From: a virus
Virus record (IMG/VR): IMGVR_UViG_3300028840_002857
Direction: 5' to 3' (one strand)
Length of the DNA stretch: 44,514 nt
The position numbers were made by a program, and so were the translations under genes. A model generated the notes under the pieces. It was not told the origin of the DNA. It made no database searches and saw only the letters and a program-made list of their open reading frames with translations. Below are positions 4,382 through 31,845 of the stretch, piece by piece (the first letter of the stretch is position 1; each line of letters begins with the position of its first letter).

Positions 4382-5686
4382 ATGCCGTTATCCGATATTG
4401 TCAATGTTTCCATTACCCGGCAGACCGCGGCAGTTTCGCGCTTGGGATTTGGAACACTTCTTGTTGTTGGAGCGCATAAGCGTTTCACAGAAAGAATAAA
4501 ATTTTATTCAACATTAACCGCCATGGCCGAAGATTTCGAAGCAACCGACGCGGAATATGTCGCCGCGACCGATTGGTTTGGTCAGAATCCGACACCGACA
4601 AGAATAGCGGTTGGCCGTCGGAAGATTGACGATCCGGTCGGCGTTGCTGTTTCCGATGTACAGAACGATACGGATTATGATATTTATATCAATGGTACAA
4701 AATTTTCTTTTACTTCCGATGCAACAGCGACAGCAATAGAAATTGCCGCGGGTCTTGTTGCGGCCGTTAATGCCGGCGCCGAACCAGTTACAGCAACAGA
4801 CGACACCGACGGAACATTTACACTTTCCGCCGACGTTGCCGATACCGCATATACATTATTAATCGATACAAAATGTACTCAGGAAGCATTTACAATTACC
4901 GAAACAATAGGCGATACAATGGACGCTATTGTAAAAGCTTCCGACGATTTTTACGGGATTGTATTAACAGACAGAACCCAAGCAACAGTCGAATTAATGG
5001 CGGCATGGGTAGAAGCCAAGATAAAGATTTTCGGTACCGCTTCGGCCGATGCCGATATCCCGGATACTACAGACGCCGCGGATGCGACCACAATAGCCGC
5101 AACGTTAAAAGCCGCGAGTTATGCGCGTTCTTTTGTTTTTTATTCAGCAAGCGCCGCGACAGAATATATCGACGCCGCTTTACTTGGAAAGATATTAACG
5201 CAGGATCCCGGATCCTATACTGCAAAGTTTAAGACTTTGGCTTCTGTAACAGTTGACACCCTAACCGATACACAGGTTACAAACATTTTGGCAAAGAATG
5301 CAAATTGTTATACAGAGGTCGGCGGCGTTAATATAACCCAAAACGGTACAGTATCCGAACCGGAATATATAGACGTTATTGTCTTTGTGGATTGGTTACA
5401 GTCCGACATGACGTCAAATATATATTCGAAGCTTGTAAATCTTCCGAAGGTTCCTTTTACCGATCCCGGAATTGGCGTTGTGGAAGCAGAAGTCAAGGCT
5501 TCATTACAGCGGGGGATTGACCGGGGCGGTTTGGCCGCGGATCCGGCGCCCACGACAACGGTTCCATTGGCCGCCGACGTTTCAAGCGTCGACAAAGCGG
5601 CGCGGACATTGCCGGACGTAAAATTTACGGCGACACTTGCCGGCGCGATTCATTCGGTTACAGTAACCGGAACAGTGGTATTATAA
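4382..5686 (+). CDS. Tail sheath protein (DUF3383-like) with an inserted module
   Basis: 434 aa with a CAAAGGGGG RBS. The N-terminus, MPLSDIVNVSITRQTAAVSRLGFGTLLVVG, is typical of DUF3383. The tube gene follows. Confidence 0.75.
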   Translation: MPLSDIVNVSITRQTAAVSRLGFGTLLVVGAHKRFTERIKFYSTLTAMAEDFEATDAEYVAATDWFGQNPTPTRIAVGRRKIDDPVGVAVSDVQNDTDYDIYINGTKFSFTSDATATAIEIAAGLVAAVNAGAEPVTATDDTDGTFTLSADVADTAYTLLIDTKCTQEAFTITETIGDTMDAIVKASDDFYGIVLTDRTQATVELMAAWVEAKIKIFGTASADADIPDTTDAADATTIAATLKAASYARSFVFYSASAATEYIDAALLGKILTQDPGSYTAKFKTLASVTVDTLTDTQVTNILAKNANCYTEVGGVNITQNGTVSEPEYIDVIVFVDWLQSDMTSNIYSKLVNLPKVPFTDPGIGVVEAEVKASLQRGIDRGGLAADPAPTTTVPLAADVSSVDKAARTLPDVKFTATLAGAIHSVTVTGTVVL

Positions 5687-6684: not shown

Positions 6685-6866
6685 CGCCGGAAATTCAAGA
6701 CGAATTCCCGGTTTGGCGTTTAATAACGGAACGCGTCGCAACATTAAAGGAATTATCGACAATATATAGTTATGAAGATATTGTCAAAATGAATGCGGTT
6801 TTAGATATGCGAAATTTTATTGATGAAAAACAGGCGGAAAATGTAAAGACAAAAGGTAATAAATGA
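6190..6866 (+). CDS. Tail assembly chaperone, -1 frameshift fusion product (GT-like)
   Basis: The -1 frame is open from 6582 through 6866 and overlaps the end of the G-like ORF. The slippery heptamer is at 6582..6588. The fusion would be about 225 aa. Confidence 0.6.
6582..6588 (+). promoter_or_regulatory. Candidate -1 programmed frameshift site T TTT TTC
   Basis: In the zero frame the codons are cgt ttt ttc gga (R F F G). T_TTT_TTC fits X_XXY_YYZ. After the slip the next codon is cgg at 6588. Confidence 0.6.
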
Positions 6867-8527
6867 TTGTTCGTGAATTAATTAATTTGATTGGATTTAA
6901 AGTCGACAATAAAGACTTGGAAGTTGCCGAACGGAAATTTCGGGATATGTCCAATCGAATGCAGGACGCCGGTAAAAAATTGACGCTATTTGTTACAGCG
7001 CCGATTCTTGGCGTTGCCGGGGCGTCCCTTAAAGCCGCGTCAGACGTTGAACAATTAGACGTTGCCATGACAACCATGTTGGGAAGCGCCGAAGCCGCGG
7101 GCCAGCTTATAAAAGAACTTTACGCATTCGCCGCCAAGACTCCGTTTGAAATTCAGAATATTGGACAAACCACAAAACAATTATTAGCTGTTGGAATTGA
7201 AGGAAAAAATATTATCCCGACATTAAAGGCACTTGGCGACGTTTCCGCCGGCTTATCCGTTCCCCTTGAACGTCTGGTCCTCAATTACGGTCAGGTCCGC
7301 GCACAACAGAAATTAACCGGCCGCGAATTGCGCGATTTCACATTGGCCGGCGTTCCAATCCTTGACCAATTAGGAAAGCAATTCGGTAAAACAACGGCGG
7401 AAATCCGGGACATGGTATCGGCCGGGAAAATTGGATTTAAAGATGTCAAGCAAGCGTTTGTCGCCATGTCTTCGGAAGGCGGCCGTTTTGAGGATTTAAT
7501 GACCAAACAATCAAAGACTTTGGGCGGTTTATGGTCAAATTTTCTTGACGTTTTATTCCTTGCCCGGGCGGAATTCGGGCGGCTTATCGTTGAAACATTC
7601 GATTTAAAACGTCGGTTTGAAATTTTAATCGAAGGGGTTGGAAAAGCGGTTCAATGGTTTAAGAATCTTTCGGACGGTACCAAACGTTTAATATTGTTGT
7701 CGGTCGGTCTTGTCGCCGCAATTGGACCGGTTCTTTTAATTTTGGGTACACTTGGAAAATTATATTTCTTTATGGCCGGCGGTTTAAAAACATTGGTCGG
7801 ATTGTGGACGCTTTTTATAAAAGCGGGTGGTCCGCTTATCGCAATGTTAAAAGGGATTACTTTAGCGGTCGCCGCCAAGATTGCGGCAATCGTCGCATTG
7901 ATAGCGTTTATCGGTCTTCTTATAGAAGATATTTGGGTTTGGGTCCATGGCGGCCAATCAGCAATCGGCGATTTTTTAGGGACATGGGAAAATTTCAAAG
8001 AACGCGTAATGTTGATATTTAAAATATTACGGGAAGATTTAAGACAGTTTATTGAAATTGCGAAAAAATTAATTATGTCTTTTATTCCGGATCCTGTCAT
8101 TGACGCATGGAATCGATTTAAAGATATAATGGTCGATATTTTCAGTATAATAAAAACAAAATTCAAGGAAATGTTGAGCGCGACAATCGAAAAAGTATCG
8201 AACCTTTTTAATCGTGCCAAGGGATTTGTAAAAGAAAAAGGAAAACAATTTATTGAAGGCGGCGGCTTGATTGGCTCCGGAGTTGAAAATCGTTTTAACC
8301 CGACGCCGGCGTTTGCTGGTTCCGGAATCGGAGCAACAAGAAAAGGAGGCAGCCGGTCAGTTAACCAGAATTTTAATTCCAATACAAATTTAACATTAAC
8401 AGTCCCGGCGGCAATGAGCGAAGCACAAACCCAAGATATTAAAAAGGTAGTTAAACAGGCGGTTGACGAATCAAACGCGGAAATGGTCCGAAATCTTGAA
8501 ACCAATAATTCACAGGTTGAAAAATAA
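6863..8527 (+). CDS. Tape measure protein
   Basis: 554 aa directly after the chaperone frameshift pair. It has a long central hydrophobic stretch (LILLSVGLVAAIGPVLLILGTLGKLYFFMAGG...). Confidence 0.8.
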   Translation: MIVRELINLIGFKVDNKDLEVAERKFRDMSNRMQDAGKKLTLFVTAPILGVAGASLKAASDVEQLDVAMTTMLGSAEAAGQLIKELYAFAAKTPFEIQNIGQTTKQLLAVGIEGKNIIPTLKALGDVSAGLSVPLERLVLNYGQVRAQQKLTGRELRDFTLAGVPILDQLGKQFGKTTAEIRDMVSAGKIGFKDVKQAFVAMSSEGGRFEDLMTKQSKTLGGLWSNFLDVLFLARAEFGRLIVETFDLKRRFEILIEGVGKAVQWFKNLSDGTKRLILLSVGLVAAIGPVLLILGTLGKLYFFMAGGLKTLVGLWTLFIKAGGPLIAMLKGITLAVAAKIAAIVALIAFIGLLIEDIWVWVHGGQSAIGDFLGTWENFKERVMLIFKILREDLRQFIEIAKKLIMSFIPDPVIDAWNRFKDIMVDIFSIIKTKFKEMLSATIEKVSNLFNRAKGFVKEKGKQFIEGGGLIGSGVENRFNPTPAFAGSGIGATRKGGSRSVNQNFNSNTNLTLTVPAAMSEAQTQDIKKVVKQAVDESNAEMVRNLETNNSQVEK

Positions 8528-8529
8528 AC

Positions 8530-9156
8530 ATGCCGATTACGTCTTTATTATTTGGATTTAAAAAACCGGGTCAAATCGGGGAAATTGTTTTGGACGCGAC
8601 CATATCGGAAAACCATAATTACGAAAATATTGTAACAAATCATCCTCTTGAAGACGGGTCCGAAATTGCCGACCATATTATCAGTCGTCCGGAACGTTTA
8701 ACAATGACCGGTTTTATTACCAATTCCCCGGTTAATTTTTTGGGCGTCGCTTCGAATCTTATTCGGGGAATCGGACGGAATCGAACCGAAGTCGCCTTCG
8801 ACGAATTGTTGGCAATATCCCAAGGGAAGCTTGATCCGATTACGGGCGTCCGCGAACGAGAATTGATAACGATCGTATCGACATTGAAGGTTTATACCGA
8901 AATGGTCATGTTATCGATTACGTTTCCAAGGGACCGGACGTCCGGGGATTCTTTACGCTTCACGGCCGAATTTCAGAAATTAACGAAGGTAACTTCCGAA
9001 ACCGTCGTCGTCCCGAATTTAAAAGCGCCGGCTGCCAACAAGGGCGTTCCGACACAATCGAACGGAAAGCAAACAGTGAAGACGCCGACGTCCGAAACAC
9101 AATCGACAAGTACGTCATTATTGAAACGAGCTAAAAATATTTTAACGGGGTCTTAA
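8530..9156 (+). CDS. Tail-tip / baseplate protein (hypothetical)
   Basis: 208 aa, first gene after the tape measure. IVTNHPLEDGSEIADHIISRPERLTMTG resembles the vT.hPvE.G..i.Dh motif of distal-tail or DNA-circulation-type proteins. Confidence 0.4.
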   Translation: MPITSLLFGFKKPGQIGEIVLDATISENHNYENIVTNHPLEDGSEIADHIISRPERLTMTGFITNSPVNFLGVASNLIRGIGRNRTEVAFDELLAISQGKLDPITGVRERELITIVSTLKVYTEMVMLSITFPRDRTSGDSLRFTAEFQKLTKVTSETVVVPNLKAPAANKGVPTQSNGKQTVKTPTSETQSTSTSLLKRAKNILTGS

Positions 9157-29864: not shown

Positions 29865-30254
29865 ATGGAATCAAAAAAATTTGTAATCCATGGAAATCCG
29901 GTCGCCAAGCCGCGGCAATCACAGCGCGACCGCTGGAAAGAACGTCCATGCGTTATGAAATATCGTATTTGGGCGGATTCGGCAAGATTGCAAGCGGGGC
30001 GCCTTCCGGTCCGTCCGACCGGTATTTTTTTGGAAATATATATCCAAGTTCCGAAGTCATGGTCAGAAAAGAAAAAAGCGGCAATGGCCGGGCGATATCA
30101 TCAAAGCGTGCCGGATAGCGATAATATTTTAAAGGCGGTCAAAGATGCGTTATTCAAAGACGATAGATCGATCGCTTTTGATAAAGCCGTAAAATTTTGG
30201 ACCTTGGAAAATCCGCGAATCGTTGTTGAAGTATGGCGGCCCGATGGCTATTAA
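29865..30254 (+). CDS. rusA: RusA-like Holliday junction resolvase
   Basis: 129 aa. IHGNPVAKPRQ and PDSDNILKAVKDALFKDDRSI match the RusA motifs. Confidence 0.6.
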   Translation: MESKKFVIHGNPVAKPRQSQRDRWKERPCVMKYRIWADSARLQAGRLPVRPTGIFLEIYIQVPKSWSEKKKAAMAGRYHQSVPDSDNILKAVKDALFKDDRSIAFDKAVKFWTLENPRIVVEVWRPDGY

Positions 30255-31074
30255 AGAATTGTCTTTATTTTCAGGAGCCGGAGGCGGTTTGCTTGGAACT
30301 AAACTTTTAGGTTGGGAGTGTATAGGATATGTCGAATTCAATAAATATTGCCAAAAAATTATTAGACGAAGAATTGAAGACGGAATCTTCGATAATGCTC
30401 CAATATTCGGCGATATCCGAAAATTCATTAATGAAGGGTACGCCGACGCATATTCGGGAATGGTTGACGTCATTACAGCGGGATTCCCTTGTCAACCATT
30501 TAGTGTCGCGGGTAAAGGAAAAGCGGAAAAAGATGATAGAAATATGTGGCCCGAAACAATTGACGTTATTCGAAGAATCAAGCCAATCTTTGTCTTTCTT
30601 GAAAACGTTCCCGGTTTATTGTCTCACGAATACACCATTACAATATTCAACCAATTATCTGAAAACGGATACGAAGCGTTACCAGCGATTAAATATGGGG
30701 CTAATAACGTTGGAGCCTTCCATAGACGGAAAAGAATATGGATATTGGCTGTCTCCAAAAGCGTCGGAATACAAGGAACCGAACAATTTACGGGATCAAA
30801 TAGCAGTCCGGGAAGGTTTGAGAATTTGGCCGACCCCGAGAGCGAGCGCAAGCGGTCCGGATTATTCCAGAGTGAACAGGAAAAAGTCAGGTGGGGACGA
30901 TCTTGTTACAGCAGTAGCGAAAACAGAAAAAGAAAAGACTGGTTCCCTGAATCCGGATTGGGTCGAATGGCTTATGGGATGGCCAATCGAGTGGAGCGCC
31001 TTAAAGCAATTGGAAACGGACAAGTTCCGCAAGTGGTTAGAGTGGTATGGGAATTATTGACAAATGAAGAATAA
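30244..31074 (+). CDS. dcm: DNA (cytosine-5)-methyltransferase
   Basis: FSGAGGG (30268-30288), GFPCQPFS (30481-30504), ENVPGLL (30601-30621), GAFHRRKRIWILA and RLKAIGNGQVPQV (31009-31035). Confidence 0.8.
   Translation: MAIKELSLFSGAGGGLLGTKLLGWECIGYVEFNKYCQKIIRRRIEDGIFDNAPIFGDIRKFINEGYADAYSGMVDVITAGFPCQPFSVAGKGKAEKDDRNMWPETIDVIRRIKPIFVFLENVPGLLSHEYTITIFNQLSENGYEALPAIKYGANNVGAFHRRKRIWILAVSKSVGIQGTEQFTGSNSSPGRFENLADPESERKRSGLFQSEQEKVRWGRSCYSSSENRKRKDWFPESGLGRMAYGMANRVERLKAIGNGQVPQVVRVVWELLTNEE
30329..31060 (+). CDS. Nested +1-frame ORF with WPTP and EWLMGWP motifs (possible overprinted gene; the start may be 30533)
   Basis: 243 stop-free codons lie wholly inside the methyltransferase gene. 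They encode WPTPRASASG (30827-) and LNPDWVEWLMGWPIEWSALKQLETDKFRKW (30947-). Confidence 0.35.
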   Translation: MSNSINIAKKLLDEELKTESSIMLQYSAISENSLMKGTPTHIREWLTSLQRDSLVNHLVSRVKEKRKKMIEICGPKQLTLFEESSQSLSFLKTFPVYCLTNTPLQYSTNYLKTDTKRYQRLNMGLITLEPSIDGKEYGYWLSPKASEYKEPNNLRDQIAVREGLRIWPTPRASASGPDYSRVNRKKSGGDDLVTAVAKTEKEKTGSLNPDWVEWLMGWPIEWSALKQLETDKFRKWLEWYGNY

Positions 31075-31240
31075 CGAAATGCCAATAATGACTTGTCCGA
31101 AATGCGGCGCGGAATACGAAGACTTCGACGGCTTCGGAGTTCTGTATTGTGAAAAATGCGGATATTGTATTCATGCTTCAATATCGGATGGTCATTGCGA
31201 TTATTGCGGAATAAAGGAAGAATTAATAAAAGGGGGTTAA
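31064..31240 (+). CDS. Zinc-ribbon mini-protein
   Basis: Hand translation gives (MKNNE)MPIMTCPKCGAEYEDFDGFGVLYCEKCGYCIHASISDGHCDYCG. An alternative start is at 31079. Confidence 0.45.
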   Translation: MKNNEMPIMTCPKCGAEYEDFDGFGVLYCEKCGYCIHASISDGHCDYCGIKEELIKGG

Positions 31241-31242
31241 GG

Positions 31243-31845
31243 TTGAAAAATGATTTTAATGGTTATAGTACAATAAATAGCTATGAAGCTGACACTCAAA
31301 GTGATTTTACGAAAACAAAAAATCCCGAACAATTGGACCTTTTTAATTATCGGCCAATTGAAAAAGAAGATTACGGAATCCCGAACGATTGGATTCGAGA
31401 ACAAGCGGCCGGCGACGGTTGTAAATGCTTCGCTTGTGGACGTTGGACAAAAATATATCACAGGACAATAACTTCATCAATGGCCAGGGCGTTAATTCTT
31501 ATTCATAAATATTATTTCAAATACGATCACAACGTATTGAAGTCAATGCACATCGAGGGATTTTTGAAGCGGTGTAGAACATCATCAGCGACGCGCGGTG
31601 ACGTCGCAAAACTTCGATTTTGGGGATTAATTAGAAAGAATGAAAATAAATCTGGACATTATTATTATACGGCCGAAGGCGCCAGATTTGTTAAAAACGA
31701 ATTAATGGTACCAAGGTACGCAGTCGTTTATGATAATCATTTTTTCGGATTGGAAGGTGAGTCGTTTATGATAGTCGAAGCTTTTAAAAATTATTTTGAT
31801 TACGAAGAGTTAATGTCTTCGAAAATCGAATATTTGGGGAAATAA
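31243..31845 (+). CDS. Hypothetical DNA-binding-like protein
   Basis: TTG 31243 follows AAAAGGGGGTTAAGG. 200 aa. It contains CKCFACGRWTKIYHRTITSSMARALILIHKY and RGDVAKLRFWGLIRK (zinc-ribbon plus winged-helix flavour). Confidence 0.5.
   Translation: MKNDFNGYSTINSYEADTQSDFTKTKNPEQLDLFNYRPIEKEDYGIPNDWIREQAAGDGCKCFACGRWTKIYHRTITSSMARALILIHKYYFKYDHNVLKSMHIEGFLKRCRTSSATRGDVAKLRFWGLIRKNENKSGHYYYTAEGARFVKNELMVPRYAVVYDNHFFGLEGESFMIVEAFKNYFDYEELMSSKIEYLGK

What the first reader, a model, noticed from the sequence alone, without database searches (positions are those of the whole stretch)
30329..31060. A 243-codon ORF nested in the +1 frame of the C5-methyltransferase gene, with methyltransferase-family motifs in both frames
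Frame A (30244-31074) reads as a complete small phage-type C5-MTase. It has FSGAGGG, GFPCQPFS, ENVPGLL and GAFHRRKRIWILA, then DWFPESGLGRMAYGMANRVERLKAIGNGQVPQV (motif X at 31009-31035).
Entirely inside it, the +1 frame is open for 243 codons. The next-longest same-strand alternative-frame ORF in this window is 119 codons. The second frame is not featureless. It encodes LTLFEESSQSLSFLKTFP, YWLSPKA, WPTPRASASG (30827-) and LNPDWVEWLMGWPIEWSALKQLETDKFRKW (30947-).
From memory, WPTP and LNP-x-[FW]-x-E-W-L-M-G-x-P-x-x-W, a motif-IX-like element, characterise the C-terminal part of another group of phage/plasmid C5-MTase-like proteins. So the same ~730 nt appear to encode two different family-like C-termini.
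Possible explanations:
1. A genuine overprinted gene. An internal ATG at 30533 would give a 175-aa product starting MIEICGPKQLTLFEE.
2. Isoforms made by frameshifting. A shift back to frame A around CTTAAAGC (31000-31007) would read ...EWLMGWPIEWSALK/AIGNGQVPQV, which is the canonical motif IX then motif X order.
3. A relic of frame switching during evolution.
4. Chance.
Basis: partly seen in the sequence, partly recalled or inferred. Interest (0 to 1): 0.75.

Follow-up and report, generated by a model that had tools for sequence, protein, structure and literature searches.

The report
Two-frame phage cytosine methyltransferase gene
One 730-base stretch of this phage genome is read in two frames to make what look like the two halves of a DNA cytosine methyltransferase, and the same double coding is kept in most sampled phage relatives, so it is a real, very long overlapping gene pair.

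Summary
Frame A (30244-31074) is a C5-methyltransferase gene. A 243-codon +1 ORF (30329-31060) lies wholly inside it. Chance gives this about once in 10,000 synonymous recodings.

It is not a one-off:
- In 80 viral loci picked by frame A alone (32-73% identity), 91% of the 77 loci scored keep a +1 frame open over more than 70% of the gene. Only 6% of 80 loci from bacterial genomes, mostly ordinary C5-methyltransferases, do so.
- Frame B amino acids are conserved above a synonymous-permutation null along the whole overlap.
- Between motifs VIII and X, frame B is the conserved frame. Frame A there is sequence-free but always open.
- A profile of frame-B proteins finds 49,098 protein clusters, with no Pfam or NCBIfam model.

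Best reading: a two-subunit enzyme.
- Alpha (frame A) carries motifs I-VIII, a disordered spacer and motif X.
- Beta (frame B) carries the WPTP recognition modules and motif IX.
- Each is probably started separately; beta most likely starts at ATG 30329.

The only precedent I found is M.EcoHK31I, but there beta is 61 aa and carries motif IX only. Frameshifting, relic and chance are not supported. Translation and assembly of beta are inferred, not shown.

The parts
30244..31074 (+). Alpha gene (frame A), 276 aa. It holds C5-methyltransferase motifs I-VIII, a spacer and motif X. Its ATG overlaps the stop of the RusA-like ORF 29865-30254 by 11 nt. An alternative TTG start lies at 30223.
   Evidence: Pfam PF00145 E 6e-38. 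Profile against PDB matches M.HhaI 15-181 at E 3e-20. AF2 gives residues 1-176 mostly at pLDDT above 80. Foldseek matches M.HhaI and M.HaeIII at E 4e-12 over about 180 columns.
30268..30288 (+). Alpha motif I, FSGAGGG (AdoMet binding).
   Evidence: Read from the sequence. Invariant columns in alignment A1.
30481..30504 (+). Alpha motif IV, GFPCQPFS (catalytic Cys). In frame B the same bases read DSLVNHLV; relatives read DSPAS there.
30601..30621 (+). Alpha motif VI, ENVPGLL.
30721..30750 (+). Alpha motif VIII, HRRKRIWILA. This is the last part of alpha that aligns to solved C5-methyltransferases.
30751..30936 (+). Alpha spacer (frame A reading of beta's recognition region). It has no sequence conservation, is G/R/S/E-rich and is predicted disordered, yet it is always stop-free.
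   Evidence: A-frame column identity 0.136 against a null of 0.117. Hypervariable with indels in A1. Length is 24-208 codons in relatives. Frame A is open from motif IV to motif X in 57 of 57 loci, where about 23% would be expected. AF2 pLDDT is below 50 for residues 177-256.
30937..31035 (+). Alpha pre-X segment and motif X, DWFPESGLGRMAYGMANRVERLKAIGNGQVPQV. GNGQVP sits at 31012-31029.
   Evidence: Conserved in A1 as W.TEP.VGRVA.GVA.RVDRLKAIGNGQVP. From 30997 onward frame A is better conserved than frame B. AF2 helix 260-273 has pLDDT about 85.
30314..30318 (+). Shine-Dalgarno-like GGGAG, 10 nt upstream of beta's ATG.
   Evidence: An SD-like 4-mer lies at -18..-5 in 16 of 32 relatives that have the ATG in this column, against a null of 10.3 +/- 1.75 (maximum 15 in 500).
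30329..31060 (+). Beta gene (frame B, +1), 243 aa, nested entirely inside alpha.
   Evidence: P = 1e-4 by recoding. Homologues. The frame is open in 53 of 56 and 54 of 56 relatives over its first two thirds, against a null of 0.20 and 0.13. Its amino acids are conserved above null, z = 12.7 to 52 after dereplication. Its stop codon falls in the same column in 44 of 56 loci.
30533..30535 (+). Internal ATG of frame B, a possible 175-aa isoform starting MIEICGPKQLTLF. It matches the start of BLOOM_57 (MESSQGIEQLTLF).
   Evidence: Only 10 of 56 relatives have Met in this column.
30746..30757 (+). Beta WLSP, a degenerate first WPTP module. Relatives read WPTPxAxD here.
   Evidence: B column identity 0.43-0.93 against 0.22-0.67 for frame A.
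30827..30922 (+). Beta WPTPRASASGPDYSRVNRKKSGGDDLVTAVAK, the candidate target-recognition module. It is homologous to a single-frame part of Mycobacterium phage Zimmer gene 80 (LLPTPEAKSSTAGPDFARANRPGSGGDDLVTTVAK).
30947..30994 (+). Beta motif IX candidate, LNPDWVEWLMGWPIEW. It shares its bases with alpha's pre-X segment.
   Evidence: Nearly invariant in A2. B column identity is 0.5-0.86 against a null of about 0.2. EWLMGWP starts exactly 44 nt before the frame-0 [LIVM]GNGQV match to motif X in about 32 of the 80 viral loci. hhalign places it on M.HhaI 265-289 (E 0.24) and on motif IX of 66 ordinary C5-methyltransferases (E 0.1). The position is right but the scores are not significant.
30995..31060 (+). 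Beta conserved tail, SALKQLETDKFRKWLEWYGNY plus stop. It overlaps alpha motif X.
   Evidence: Consensus is LKPLExDKFxxWLxxHG. Columns L, P, L, W and L are conserved above null, and the stop column is shared by 44 of 56 loci.

Best explanation
The 30244-31074 locus encodes a two-subunit DNA cytosine-5 methyltransferase from two almost fully overlapping same-strand genes.

Alpha (frame A)
- Ribosomes starting at ATG 30244, probably coupled to the end of the upstream RusA-like gene, make alpha (276 aa).
- Alpha is the AdoMet-binding and catalytic large domain (motifs I-VIII), then a disordered spacer of about 60-80 aa, then the motif X helix that completes the large domain.
- The spacer has no sequence constraint. 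It only has to stay free of stops.

Beta (frame B)
- Other ribosomes start in the +1 frame, most likely at ATG 30329, which has GGGAG 10 nt upstream. They make beta (243 aa).
- The N-terminal part of beta is read over alpha's motifs I-VIII. It is weakly constrained and predicted unstructured.
- The C-terminal 100-170 aa carry the WPTP modules (candidate target-recognition domain), motif IX (LNPDWVEWLMGWPIEW) and a conserved tail.

Assembly and role
- Beta supplies the small, DNA-recognising domain that alpha lacks.
- The heterodimer methylates an unknown target sequence, presumably to protect phage DNA from host restriction.

Shown: both ORFs, their homologies, and purifying selection on both frames across more than 50 diverged loci.
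Inferred: independent initiation of beta, alpha-beta assembly, and activity.
For: 1. The nested ORF is not chance: P = 1e-4.

2. Family-wide conservation.
- 80 viral loci were chosen by frame A alone. The median +1 open overlap is 252 codons, and 91% of the 77 loci scored are open over more than 70% of frame A.
- In the same loci the +2 frame has a median of 60 codons and none exceeds 70%.
- In 80 loci from bacterial genomes, most of them ordinary C5-methyltransferases, the +1 median is 61 codons and 6% exceed 70%.

3. Frame B amino acids are conserved above a synonymous-permutation null in every part of the overlap.
- All 56 loci: z = 21.6, 35 and 76.
- After dereplication to 34 loci: z = 12.7, 21 and 52.
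- The baseline upstream of the ATG is z = 3.6.

4. Division of labour along the DNA.
- 30329-30760: frame A is dominant.
- 30761-30939: frame B identity is 0.242, while frame A is 0.136, about its null of 0.117.
- 30940-31056: both frames are constrained.

5. Frame A stays open through the unconstrained spacer in 57 of 57 loci that have motif X in frame 0. About 23% would be expected, so full-length alpha is selected for.

6. Beta's start is conserved: ATG in the same column in 32 of 56 loci, +1 stops clustered just upstream of it, and SD-like motifs enriched. In 12 of 56 loci beta's ATG lies 4 nt after alpha's ATG.

7. The WPTP...SGGDDLVTAVAK segment of frame B is homologous to a part of Mycobacterium phage Zimmer gene 80 that is not overlapped.

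8. Alpha folds as an M.HhaI-like large domain, a disordered linker and a C-terminal helix. It has no small domain.

9. [quoted passage not shown]

10. Paenibacillus phage Bloom is annotated with exactly such a nested pair, BLOOM_56 and BLOOM_57.
Against: - There is no direct evidence that beta is translated or binds alpha.
- AF2 gives no confident fold for beta alone: mean pLDDT 57, pTM 0.26.
- The motif IX assignment is not statistically significant by profile comparison (E 0.24 and 0.1). Pfam sees nothing in B-type proteins, even those that also carry motif X.
- The reason for keeping frame B open over alpha's motifs I-IV is unexplained. Firmicute-phage relatives do without it.
- Only half of the relatives with the conserved ATG have an SD-like motif.
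- The window's beta is a divergent subtype that lacks the common TWPKxGMM motif.
Confidence: 0.7

Rival explanations
1. Programmed ribosomal frameshifting makes one canonical polypeptide. Ribosomes would shift +1 from frame A to frame B after motif VIII. They would then shift -1 from frame B back to frame A near CTTAAAG (31000-31006), giving motifs I-VIII, TRD, IX and X in one chain.
For: - The motif order I-VIII (A), TRD and IX (B), X (A) would be canonical.
- TTA AAG in frame B contains an A_AAG lysine slip motif (from general knowledge of -1 slippage in E. coli).
- Staggered relatives would need only one +1 shift.
Against: - Frame B is kept stop-free and conserved from near alpha's start, hundreds of nt upstream of any useful shift site. 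It has a conserved ATG and enriched SD-like motifs.
- Frame A is kept open through the whole spacer, which frameshifting would not require.
- The ends of frame A in 11 staggered loci share no slippery or stop context.
- The shifted junction ...EWSALK/AIGNG would leave only about 16 residues between motifs IX and X and would drop the conserved pre-X segment. Staggered relatives keep both the tail and the pre-X segment.
- Two shifts in opposite directions within one gene would be needed.
Confidence: 0.08
2. Frame B is a real translated gene, but its product is not a methyltransferase subunit. It could be, for example, a regulator, an anti-restriction factor or another phage protein that happens to be overprinted on the methyltransferase gene.
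For: - Beta alone has no confident fold and matches no curated family.
- The motif IX assignment is statistically weak.
Against: - Alpha lacks any small domain or TRD, so it would be incomplete on its own.
- In staggered relatives the same B-type sequence is covalently followed by motif X.
- B-type ORFs were only ever seen overlapping this methyltransferase subfamily.
- LNPxWVEWLMGWP matches the motif IX pattern L.P......MG[WYF]P at the right distance from motif X.
Confidence: 0.12
3. Frame B is not translated. It would be an evolutionary relic of frame switching, or a by-product of frame A's amino-acid and codon composition.
For: Some frame-B conservation is a shadow of frame A's motifs. For example, ENV reads as K/R-T/M in +1, and W reads as G.
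Against: - The synonymous-permutation null already accounts for that shadow and is exceeded everywhere.
- Between motifs VIII and X, frame B is better conserved than frame A.
- Ordinary C5-methyltransferases with the same motifs have no long +1 ORF.
- The frame survives in loci with only 32-50% frame-A identity, from hosts in at least five phyla.
Confidence: 0.03

Closest known systems
M.EcoHK31I (E. coli HK31; Lee, Kam and Shaw 1995, cited via PMC2836561 and PMC3404938)
   Same: It is a C5-methyltransferase made of two polypeptides. Alpha has motifs I-VIII and X. Beta has motif IX and is encoded entirely inside the alpha gene in a different reading frame.
   Different: - Its beta is only 61 aa, carries motif IX alone, and the TRD is in alpha. 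Here beta is 243 aa, spans 88% of alpha's gene and appears to carry the recognition modules as well.
- M.EcoHK31I is part of a cellular restriction-modification system. This gene is a phage gene with no visible endonuclease partner.
M.AquI (Agmenellum quadruplicatum; Karreman and de Waard 1990, cited via PMC3404938)
   Same: It is a two-subunit C5-methyltransferase split within the variable region. The staggered relatives of this locus (L013, L029, L033, L060, L081, P0001, P0003, P0008 and Mycobacterium phage Zimmer genes 81/80) have the same split: alpha with motifs I-VIII, beta with TRD, IX and X.
   Different: In the window motif X stays with alpha. In the staggered relatives beta's ORF still runs back over most of alpha's coding sequence.
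Classical phage overlapping genes (phiX174 A/B and D/E, lambda Rz/Rz1); from general knowledge
   Same: A same-strand out-of-frame gene lies nested within another gene, and both are translated from their own starts.
   Different: - Those overlaps are about 180-360 nt and pair functionally unrelated proteins.
- Here the overlap is 732 nt, and about 1,190 nt (about 399 codons) in relative L056.
- The two products appear to be subunits of one enzyme, and a 60-nt stretch encodes a conserved motif in each frame.
Out-of-frame HNH endonuclease inside an actinophage DNA methylase insertion (ShiLan domain, PMC11855218)
   Same: It is a phage methylase gene whose own frame stays open across a segment whose real coding content is in another frame. 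The in-frame reading is thought to form a harmless loop.
   Different: There the out-of-frame gene is a selfish homing endonuclease within an insertion. Here it is part of the enzyme itself and covers nearly the whole gene.

Membership tests
DNA (cytosine-5) methyltransferase, Pfam PF00145 (alpha, frame A) | Motifs I-VIII, including the catalytic PCQ, in canonical order | tested here: met
   PF00145 E 6e-38 over aa 4-254. TIGR00675 E 7e-28, just below its cut-off. M.HhaI 15-181 at E 3e-20. Foldseek to M.HhaI and M.HaeIII at E 4e-12.
DNA (cytosine-5) methyltransferase, Pfam PF00145 (alpha, frame A) | Motif X (GN.V.P helix) at the C-terminus | tested here: met
   RLKAIGNGQVPQV; G257 N258 G259 Q260 V261 are invariant in A1. 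AF2 helix 260-273 has pLDDT about 85. The assignment is by pattern and position; neither the Pfam nor the PDB alignment reached it.
DNA (cytosine-5) methyltransferase, Pfam PF00145 (alpha, frame A) | Target-recognition domain and motif IX between motifs VIII and X in the same polypeptide | tested here: not met
   Frame A between motifs VIII and X is hypervariable and G/R/S/E-rich, with pLDDT below 50 and no conservation above null. Motif IX-like sequence is found only in frame B.
M.EcoHK31I-type heterodimeric C5-methyltransferase | Beta chain encoded entirely within the alpha gene in another reading frame | tested here: met
   ORF 30329-31060 (+1) lies inside 30244-31074. The arrangement is conserved in 57 of the 67 viral loci where motif X could be located.
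M.EcoHK31I-type heterodimeric C5-methyltransferase | Alpha carries motifs I-VIII and X | tested here: met
M.EcoHK31I-type heterodimeric C5-methyltransferase | Beta carries motif IX | tested here: inconclusive
   LNPDWVEWLMGWPIEW fits L.P......MG[WYF]P...[WYF]. It is the top hhalign placement on M.HhaI 265-289 (E 0.24) and on motif IX of 66 ordinary C5-methyltransferases (E 0.1). In staggered relatives it lies about 35-50 aa before motif X in the same chain. The scores are not significant.
M.EcoHK31I-type heterodimeric C5-methyltransferase | TRD resides in alpha; beta is a short (61 aa) motif-IX peptide | tested here: not met
   Alpha has no conserved region between motifs VIII and X. The conserved WPTP modules are in beta, which is 243 aa.
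M.EcoHK31I-type heterodimeric C5-methyltransferase | Both polypeptides are required for methylation in vitro | not testable with these tools
   Needs expression and a methylation assay.
M.AquI-type split C5-methyltransferase | Alpha has motifs I-VIII; beta has distal TRD plus motifs IX and X | tested here: not met
   In the window motif X is in frame A. The feature is met in 10 staggered relatives, where motif X is in the +1 frame and that frame is uninterrupted in 10 of 10.
Programmed ribosomal frameshift gene | A conserved slippery site, with or without a stimulator, at the frame junction; the downstream frame is not needed upstream of it | tested here: not met
   The ends of frame A in 11 staggered loci share no context. 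Frame B is open and conserved from near alpha's start. RNA stimulators were not searched for.

The most novel reading that the evidence does not exclude
This locus represents a very large, so far undescribed class of phage cytosine methyltransferases.
- A profile of frame-B proteins finds at least 49,098 clusters at 50% identity, with no Pfam or NCBIfam model.
- The class would consist of obligate alpha/beta enzymes encoded by almost completely overlapping same-strand genes. That would be the longest and most widely conserved dual-coding arrangement known in bacteriophages.
- The recognition subunit would be read in the +1 frame across the catalytic subunit's gene.
- One 60-nt stretch would specify a conserved motif in each frame: motif IX in beta and the pre-X segment in alpha.
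- Nested and staggered architectures would interconvert during evolution.
Probability: 0.5. Interest if true: 0.85.

Novelty: new variant of a known kind. Interest (0 to 1): 0.75.

Why it matters
- It would be a clear, testable case of a gene-length same-strand overlap under purifying selection in both frames. Such overlaps are thought to be almost absent in prokaryotes and short in phages.
- Standard gene callers cannot annotate both genes. In public catalogues tens of thousands of frame-B ORFs are unnamed or listed as hypothetical proteins, or only one of the two frames is annotated.
- Phage methylomes and predictions of anti-restriction capacity may be misread if the recognition subunit is ignored.
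- Beta carries a variable number of WPTP modules, which could make it a swappable specificity subunit.
- The 60 nt that encode two conserved motifs give a natural system for studying how two proteins can be optimised on one sequence.

Tried and rejected
- Close relatives for a classical synonymous-rate scan were not found. Apart from the window's own protein (P0121, on 4 contigs), the best frame-A homologue is about 55% identical. A single-protein scan of IMG/VR gave one locus at 43%. I replaced that analysis with a family-wide codon-permutation test.
- The PDB sequence search with the frame-B profile gave nothing meaningful. Neither did the search with Zimmer gene 80.
- Pfam and NCBIfam found no model for B-type proteins, even the staggered ones that carry motif X.
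- AF2 of beta alone gave a low-confidence model, so I did not use it for a fold search.
- hhalign of the frame-B profile against M.HhaI and against 66 ordinary C5-methyltransferases found the right place but without significance.
- I looked for single-frame fused relatives among the longer frame-A homologues (P0141, P0150, P0183, P0187, P0201, P0209, P0135, P0153). All are nested types with longer junk linkers.
- The original M.EcoHK31I paper (PMC306636) is not held. Full-text searches found no description of this family-wide arrangement.
Full report
**What is there**

The window is a tailed-phage contig. It has a tape-measure protein, head morphogenesis genes and a RusA-like resolvase, and no tRNA genes.

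Directly after the RusA-like ORF (29865-30254) lies frame A, 30244-31074, 276 aa. Entirely inside it, in the +1 frame, lies a 243-codon ORF, 30329-31060. That includes the statement that the next-longest same-strand nested ORF in the window has 119 codons (4873-5232).

**Chance**

I kept frame A's protein fixed and resampled its synonymous codons from the window's codon usage 20,000 times.
- The longest +1 open stretch averaged 79 codons.
- It reached 243 codons in a fraction 1e-4 of trials.
- Permuting the gene's own synonymous codons never reached 243 (maximum 238).
- The +2 frame of the same gene is open for only 25 codons.

**Both frames have homologues**

Frame A is a C5-methyltransferase.
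- Pfam PF00145 gives E 6e-38.
- A profile of frame A and 29 homologues aligns to M.HhaI residues 15-181, that is motifs I-VIII only, at E 3e-20.

Frame B matches no Pfam or NCBIfam model, but it does have homologues.
- It matches PHROG phrog_1008, labelled 'DNA methyltransferase', at E 3e-17.
- It matches 361 called proteins from metagenomes, up to 43% identical over 90-100% of its length.
- A profile of 67 such proteins finds 49,098 clusters at 50% identity with E <= 1e-3, and 9,987 with E <= 1e-30.

In GenBank phages the frame-B translation hits the same loci as frame A.
- Paenibacillus phage Bloom is annotated with BLOOM_57 nested in the +1 frame of BLOOM_56. Both are called cytosine methyltransferase.
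- Stenotrophomonas phage SOVA965 has a 210-codon nested ORF.
- Mycobacterium phage Zimmer has two overlapping 'DNA methylase' genes, 81 and 80, offset by +1.

**An unbiased family survey**

I took 80 IMG/VR loci selected only through frame-A peptides (32-73% identity).
- 77 of the 80 loci could be scored.
- The +1 frame is open over a median of 252 codons of the methyltransferase ORF.
- It is open over more than 70% of the ORF in 91% of scored loci.
- The +2 frame has a median of 60 codons and never exceeds 70%.

As a control I used 80 loci from bacterial genomes found with the same query. Most are ordinary C5-methyltransferases with 28-37% identity over motifs I-VIII.
- Their +1 median is 61 codons, and only 6% exceed 70%.
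- Most of the control loci that do have a long +1 ORF are the closest relatives. They come from a gammaproteobacterial MAG, Chitinophaga, Vicinamibacteria, Paenibacillus alvei and Phocaeicola (L085-L089), so the arrangement spans several phyla.
- One Leptospira plasmid also has it.

**Selection on both frames**

I aligned 56 nested-type loci by frame A and compared against a null that permutes synonymous codons within each gene.

| Region | Frame-B column identity | Null | z (56 loci) | z (34 loci, <62% nt identity) |
|---|---|---|---|---|
| Upstream of beta's ATG (baseline) | 0.240 | 0.221 | 4.8 | 3.6 |
| 30329-30532 | 0.290 | 0.231 | 21.6 | 12.7 |
| 30533-30760 | 0.300 | 0.218 | 35 | 21 |
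| 30940-31060 | 0.470 | 0.229 | 76 | 52 |

Stop codons in the +1 frame tell the same story.
- 30329-30532 has none in 53 of 56 genes, where the null fraction is 0.20.
- 30533-30760 has none in 54 of 56 genes, where the null fraction is 0.13.

The frame-B stop codon falls in the same alignment column in 44 of 56 loci.

In the reciprocal test I aligned by frame B and permuted frame B's synonymous codons.
- Frame A is strongly constrained over 30329-30760 (about 0.52 against 0.20).
- Frame A is strongly constrained over 30940-31056 (0.50 against 0.28).
- In 30761-30939 frame A is at its null (0.136 against 0.117), while frame B is conserved (0.242).

In the frame-A alignment that stretch is hypervariable, full of indels and G/R/S/E-rich. 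It is 24-208 codons long in relatives. Yet frame A is uninterrupted from motif IV to motif X in all 57 loci whose motif X lies in frame 0. About 23% would be expected by chance.

**Anatomy**

Alpha (frame A) has these parts.
- Motif I, FSGAGGG
- Motif IV, GFPCQPFS
- Motif VI, ENVPGLL
- Motif VIII, HRRKRIWILA
- A spacer
- The conserved pre-X segment and motif X, W.TEP.VGRVA.GVA.RVDRLKAIGNGQVP

AF2 folds alpha residues 1-176 as a large domain like those of M.HhaI and M.HaeIII. Residues 177-256 have pLDDT below 50, and there is a confident C-terminal helix at 260-273. Alpha therefore has no small domain.

Beta (frame B) has these parts.
- A poorly conserved, S/T/P-rich N-terminal part read over alpha's motifs.
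- One to five or more WPTPxAxD modules. In the window these are a degenerate WLSP at 30746 and WPTPRASASG at 30827.
- A nearly invariant G.LNP.WVEWLMGWP.GW.
- A conserved tail, LKPLE.DKF..WL..HG.

Two observations bear on what beta's segments are.
- The window's WPTP...SGGDDLVTAVAK segment is homologous to a part of Zimmer gene 80 that is not overlapped by any other gene.
- LNPDWVEWLMGWPIEW fits the motif IX pattern. It is the single best hhalign placement on M.HhaI 265-289 (RKLHPRECARVMGYPDSY) and on motif IX of 66 ordinary C5-methyltransferases. The scores (E 0.24 and 0.1) are not significant.

AF2 gives no confident fold for beta alone: pLDDT 57, with only the motif IX helix and the tail helix reaching 70-86.

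**Two architectures**

- Nested type: 57 of the 67 viral loci where motif X could be located. Motif X is in frame A, and EWLMGWP in +1 starts exactly 44 nt before the frame-0 [LIVM]GNGQV match to motif X in about 32 of the 80 viral loci.
- Staggered type: 10 of 67 loci, plus P0001, P0003, P0008 and Zimmer. Frame A stops somewhere after motif VIII. The +1 ORF carries TRD, IX, the tail, the pre-X segment and X one after another. It is still open back over alpha's motifs.
- Motif X is never orphaned.
- The few exceptions look like decay or indel errors, for example L073 and L032.

**How beta is made**

- The +1 ATG at 30329 comes from alpha's invariant Tyr-Val (TAT GTC).
- An ATG is in that column in 32 of 56 loci and is the first ATG in 21.
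- +1 stops cluster just upstream of it.
- SD-like 4-mers lie 5-18 nt upstream in 16 of 32 loci, against 10.3 +/- 1.75 expected (maximum 15 in 500). The window has GGGAG at 30314-30318.
- In 12 of 56 loci beta's ATG lies 4 nt after alpha's ATG (ATGAATGA), so both would share one ribosome-binding site.
It is, however, the start used in Firmicute-phage relatives.

**Frameshifting is disfavoured**

- Frame B is open and conserved far upstream of any useful shift site.
- Frame A is open through its unconstrained spacer.
- The ends of frame A in 11 staggered loci share no slippery or stop context.

**Interpretation**

The best-supported reading is a two-subunit C5-methyltransferase.
- Alpha is the complete large domain (motifs I-VIII plus X), joined by a passive spacer.
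- Beta is the small, DNA-recognising domain (TRD modules plus motif IX).
- The two are translated independently from the same DNA.

This mirrors the domain structure of M.HhaI as I recall it from the published structure, where motifs I-VIII and X form the large domain and the TRD and motif IX form the small one. It has one documented precedent. The M.EcoHK31I beta chain (motif IX) is encoded entirely in another frame inside the alpha gene (motifs I-VIII, X and TRD), and both chains are needed for activity (PMC2836561; PMC3404938). The staggered relatives correspond to the M.AquI split.

The differences from M.EcoHK31I are large.
- Beta here is 243 aa rather than 61.
- Beta overlaps 88% of alpha's gene.
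- Beta seems to carry the recognition modules.
- The arrangement is a family trait found in most sampled phage relatives and mirrored by tens of thousands of protein clusters, not a single case.

I found no description of it in the searchable literature. The Paenibacillus phage papers list two methyltransferase genes without comment. A conceptually related but different case is the out-of-frame HNH endonuclease inside an actinophage methylase insertion (PMC11855218).

**What remains open**

- Translation of beta, alpha-beta assembly, the target sequence and the role of beta's first 70-130 residues are all inferred or unknown.
- It is also unexplained how motif IX and the pre-X segment came to share the same 60 nt, given that staggered relatives encode them one after the other.

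Noticed in passing
window 7654-8544, minus strand: A 297-codon stop-free stretch lies antisense to the tape-measure gene (6863-8524). It is the longest open stretch on the minus strand of a contig whose genes all appear to be on the plus strand.
   Followed up: no
window 31064-31240 and 31156-31845: A 58-aa ORF with three CxxC pairs, zinc-ribbon-like, lies directly after the methyltransferase. It overlaps the next ORF by 85 nt. The PHROG match of that next ORF begins only at aa 77, so its true start is probably further downstream.
   Followed up: partly
window 30244-30254: Alpha's ATG overlaps the end of the RusA-like resolvase ORF (29865-30254) by 11 nt, which suggests translational coupling. 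No good Shine-Dalgarno motif is visible before 30244.
   Followed up: no
L073 (IMGVR_UViG_3300033182_000858), locus 1419-2421: One ORF joins motifs I-IV in frame to B-type sequence (TRD, IX, X). Motifs V-VIII are left in the third frame. This is a 1-nt indel, either an assembly error or a dead gene. P0096 looks the same, with its Pfam hit limited to aa 42-155.
   Followed up: partly
B-type proteins P0004, P0008, P0019; alpha homologues P0141, P0201, P0135: The number of WPTPxAxD modules in beta varies from one to five or more. Alpha's junk spacer lengthens with it, from 24 to 208 codons. This is reminiscent of the tandem recognition domains of multispecific phage methyltransferases, a comparison made from memory.
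   Followed up: partly
12 of 56 related loci, e.g. L007, L012, L016, L025: Alpha begins Met-Asn-Glu (ATG AAT GAA), so beta's ATG lies 4 nt after alpha's ATG (ATGAATGA). The two overlapping genes would then start under one ribosome-binding site.
   Followed up: partly
L001 (Stenotrophomonas phage SOVA965), locus 1618-2118: The record's only 'DNA-cytosine methyltransferase' CDS is the frame-B ORF from an internal Met. The catalytic frame-A ORF (1416-2141) is not annotated at all.
   Followed up: yes
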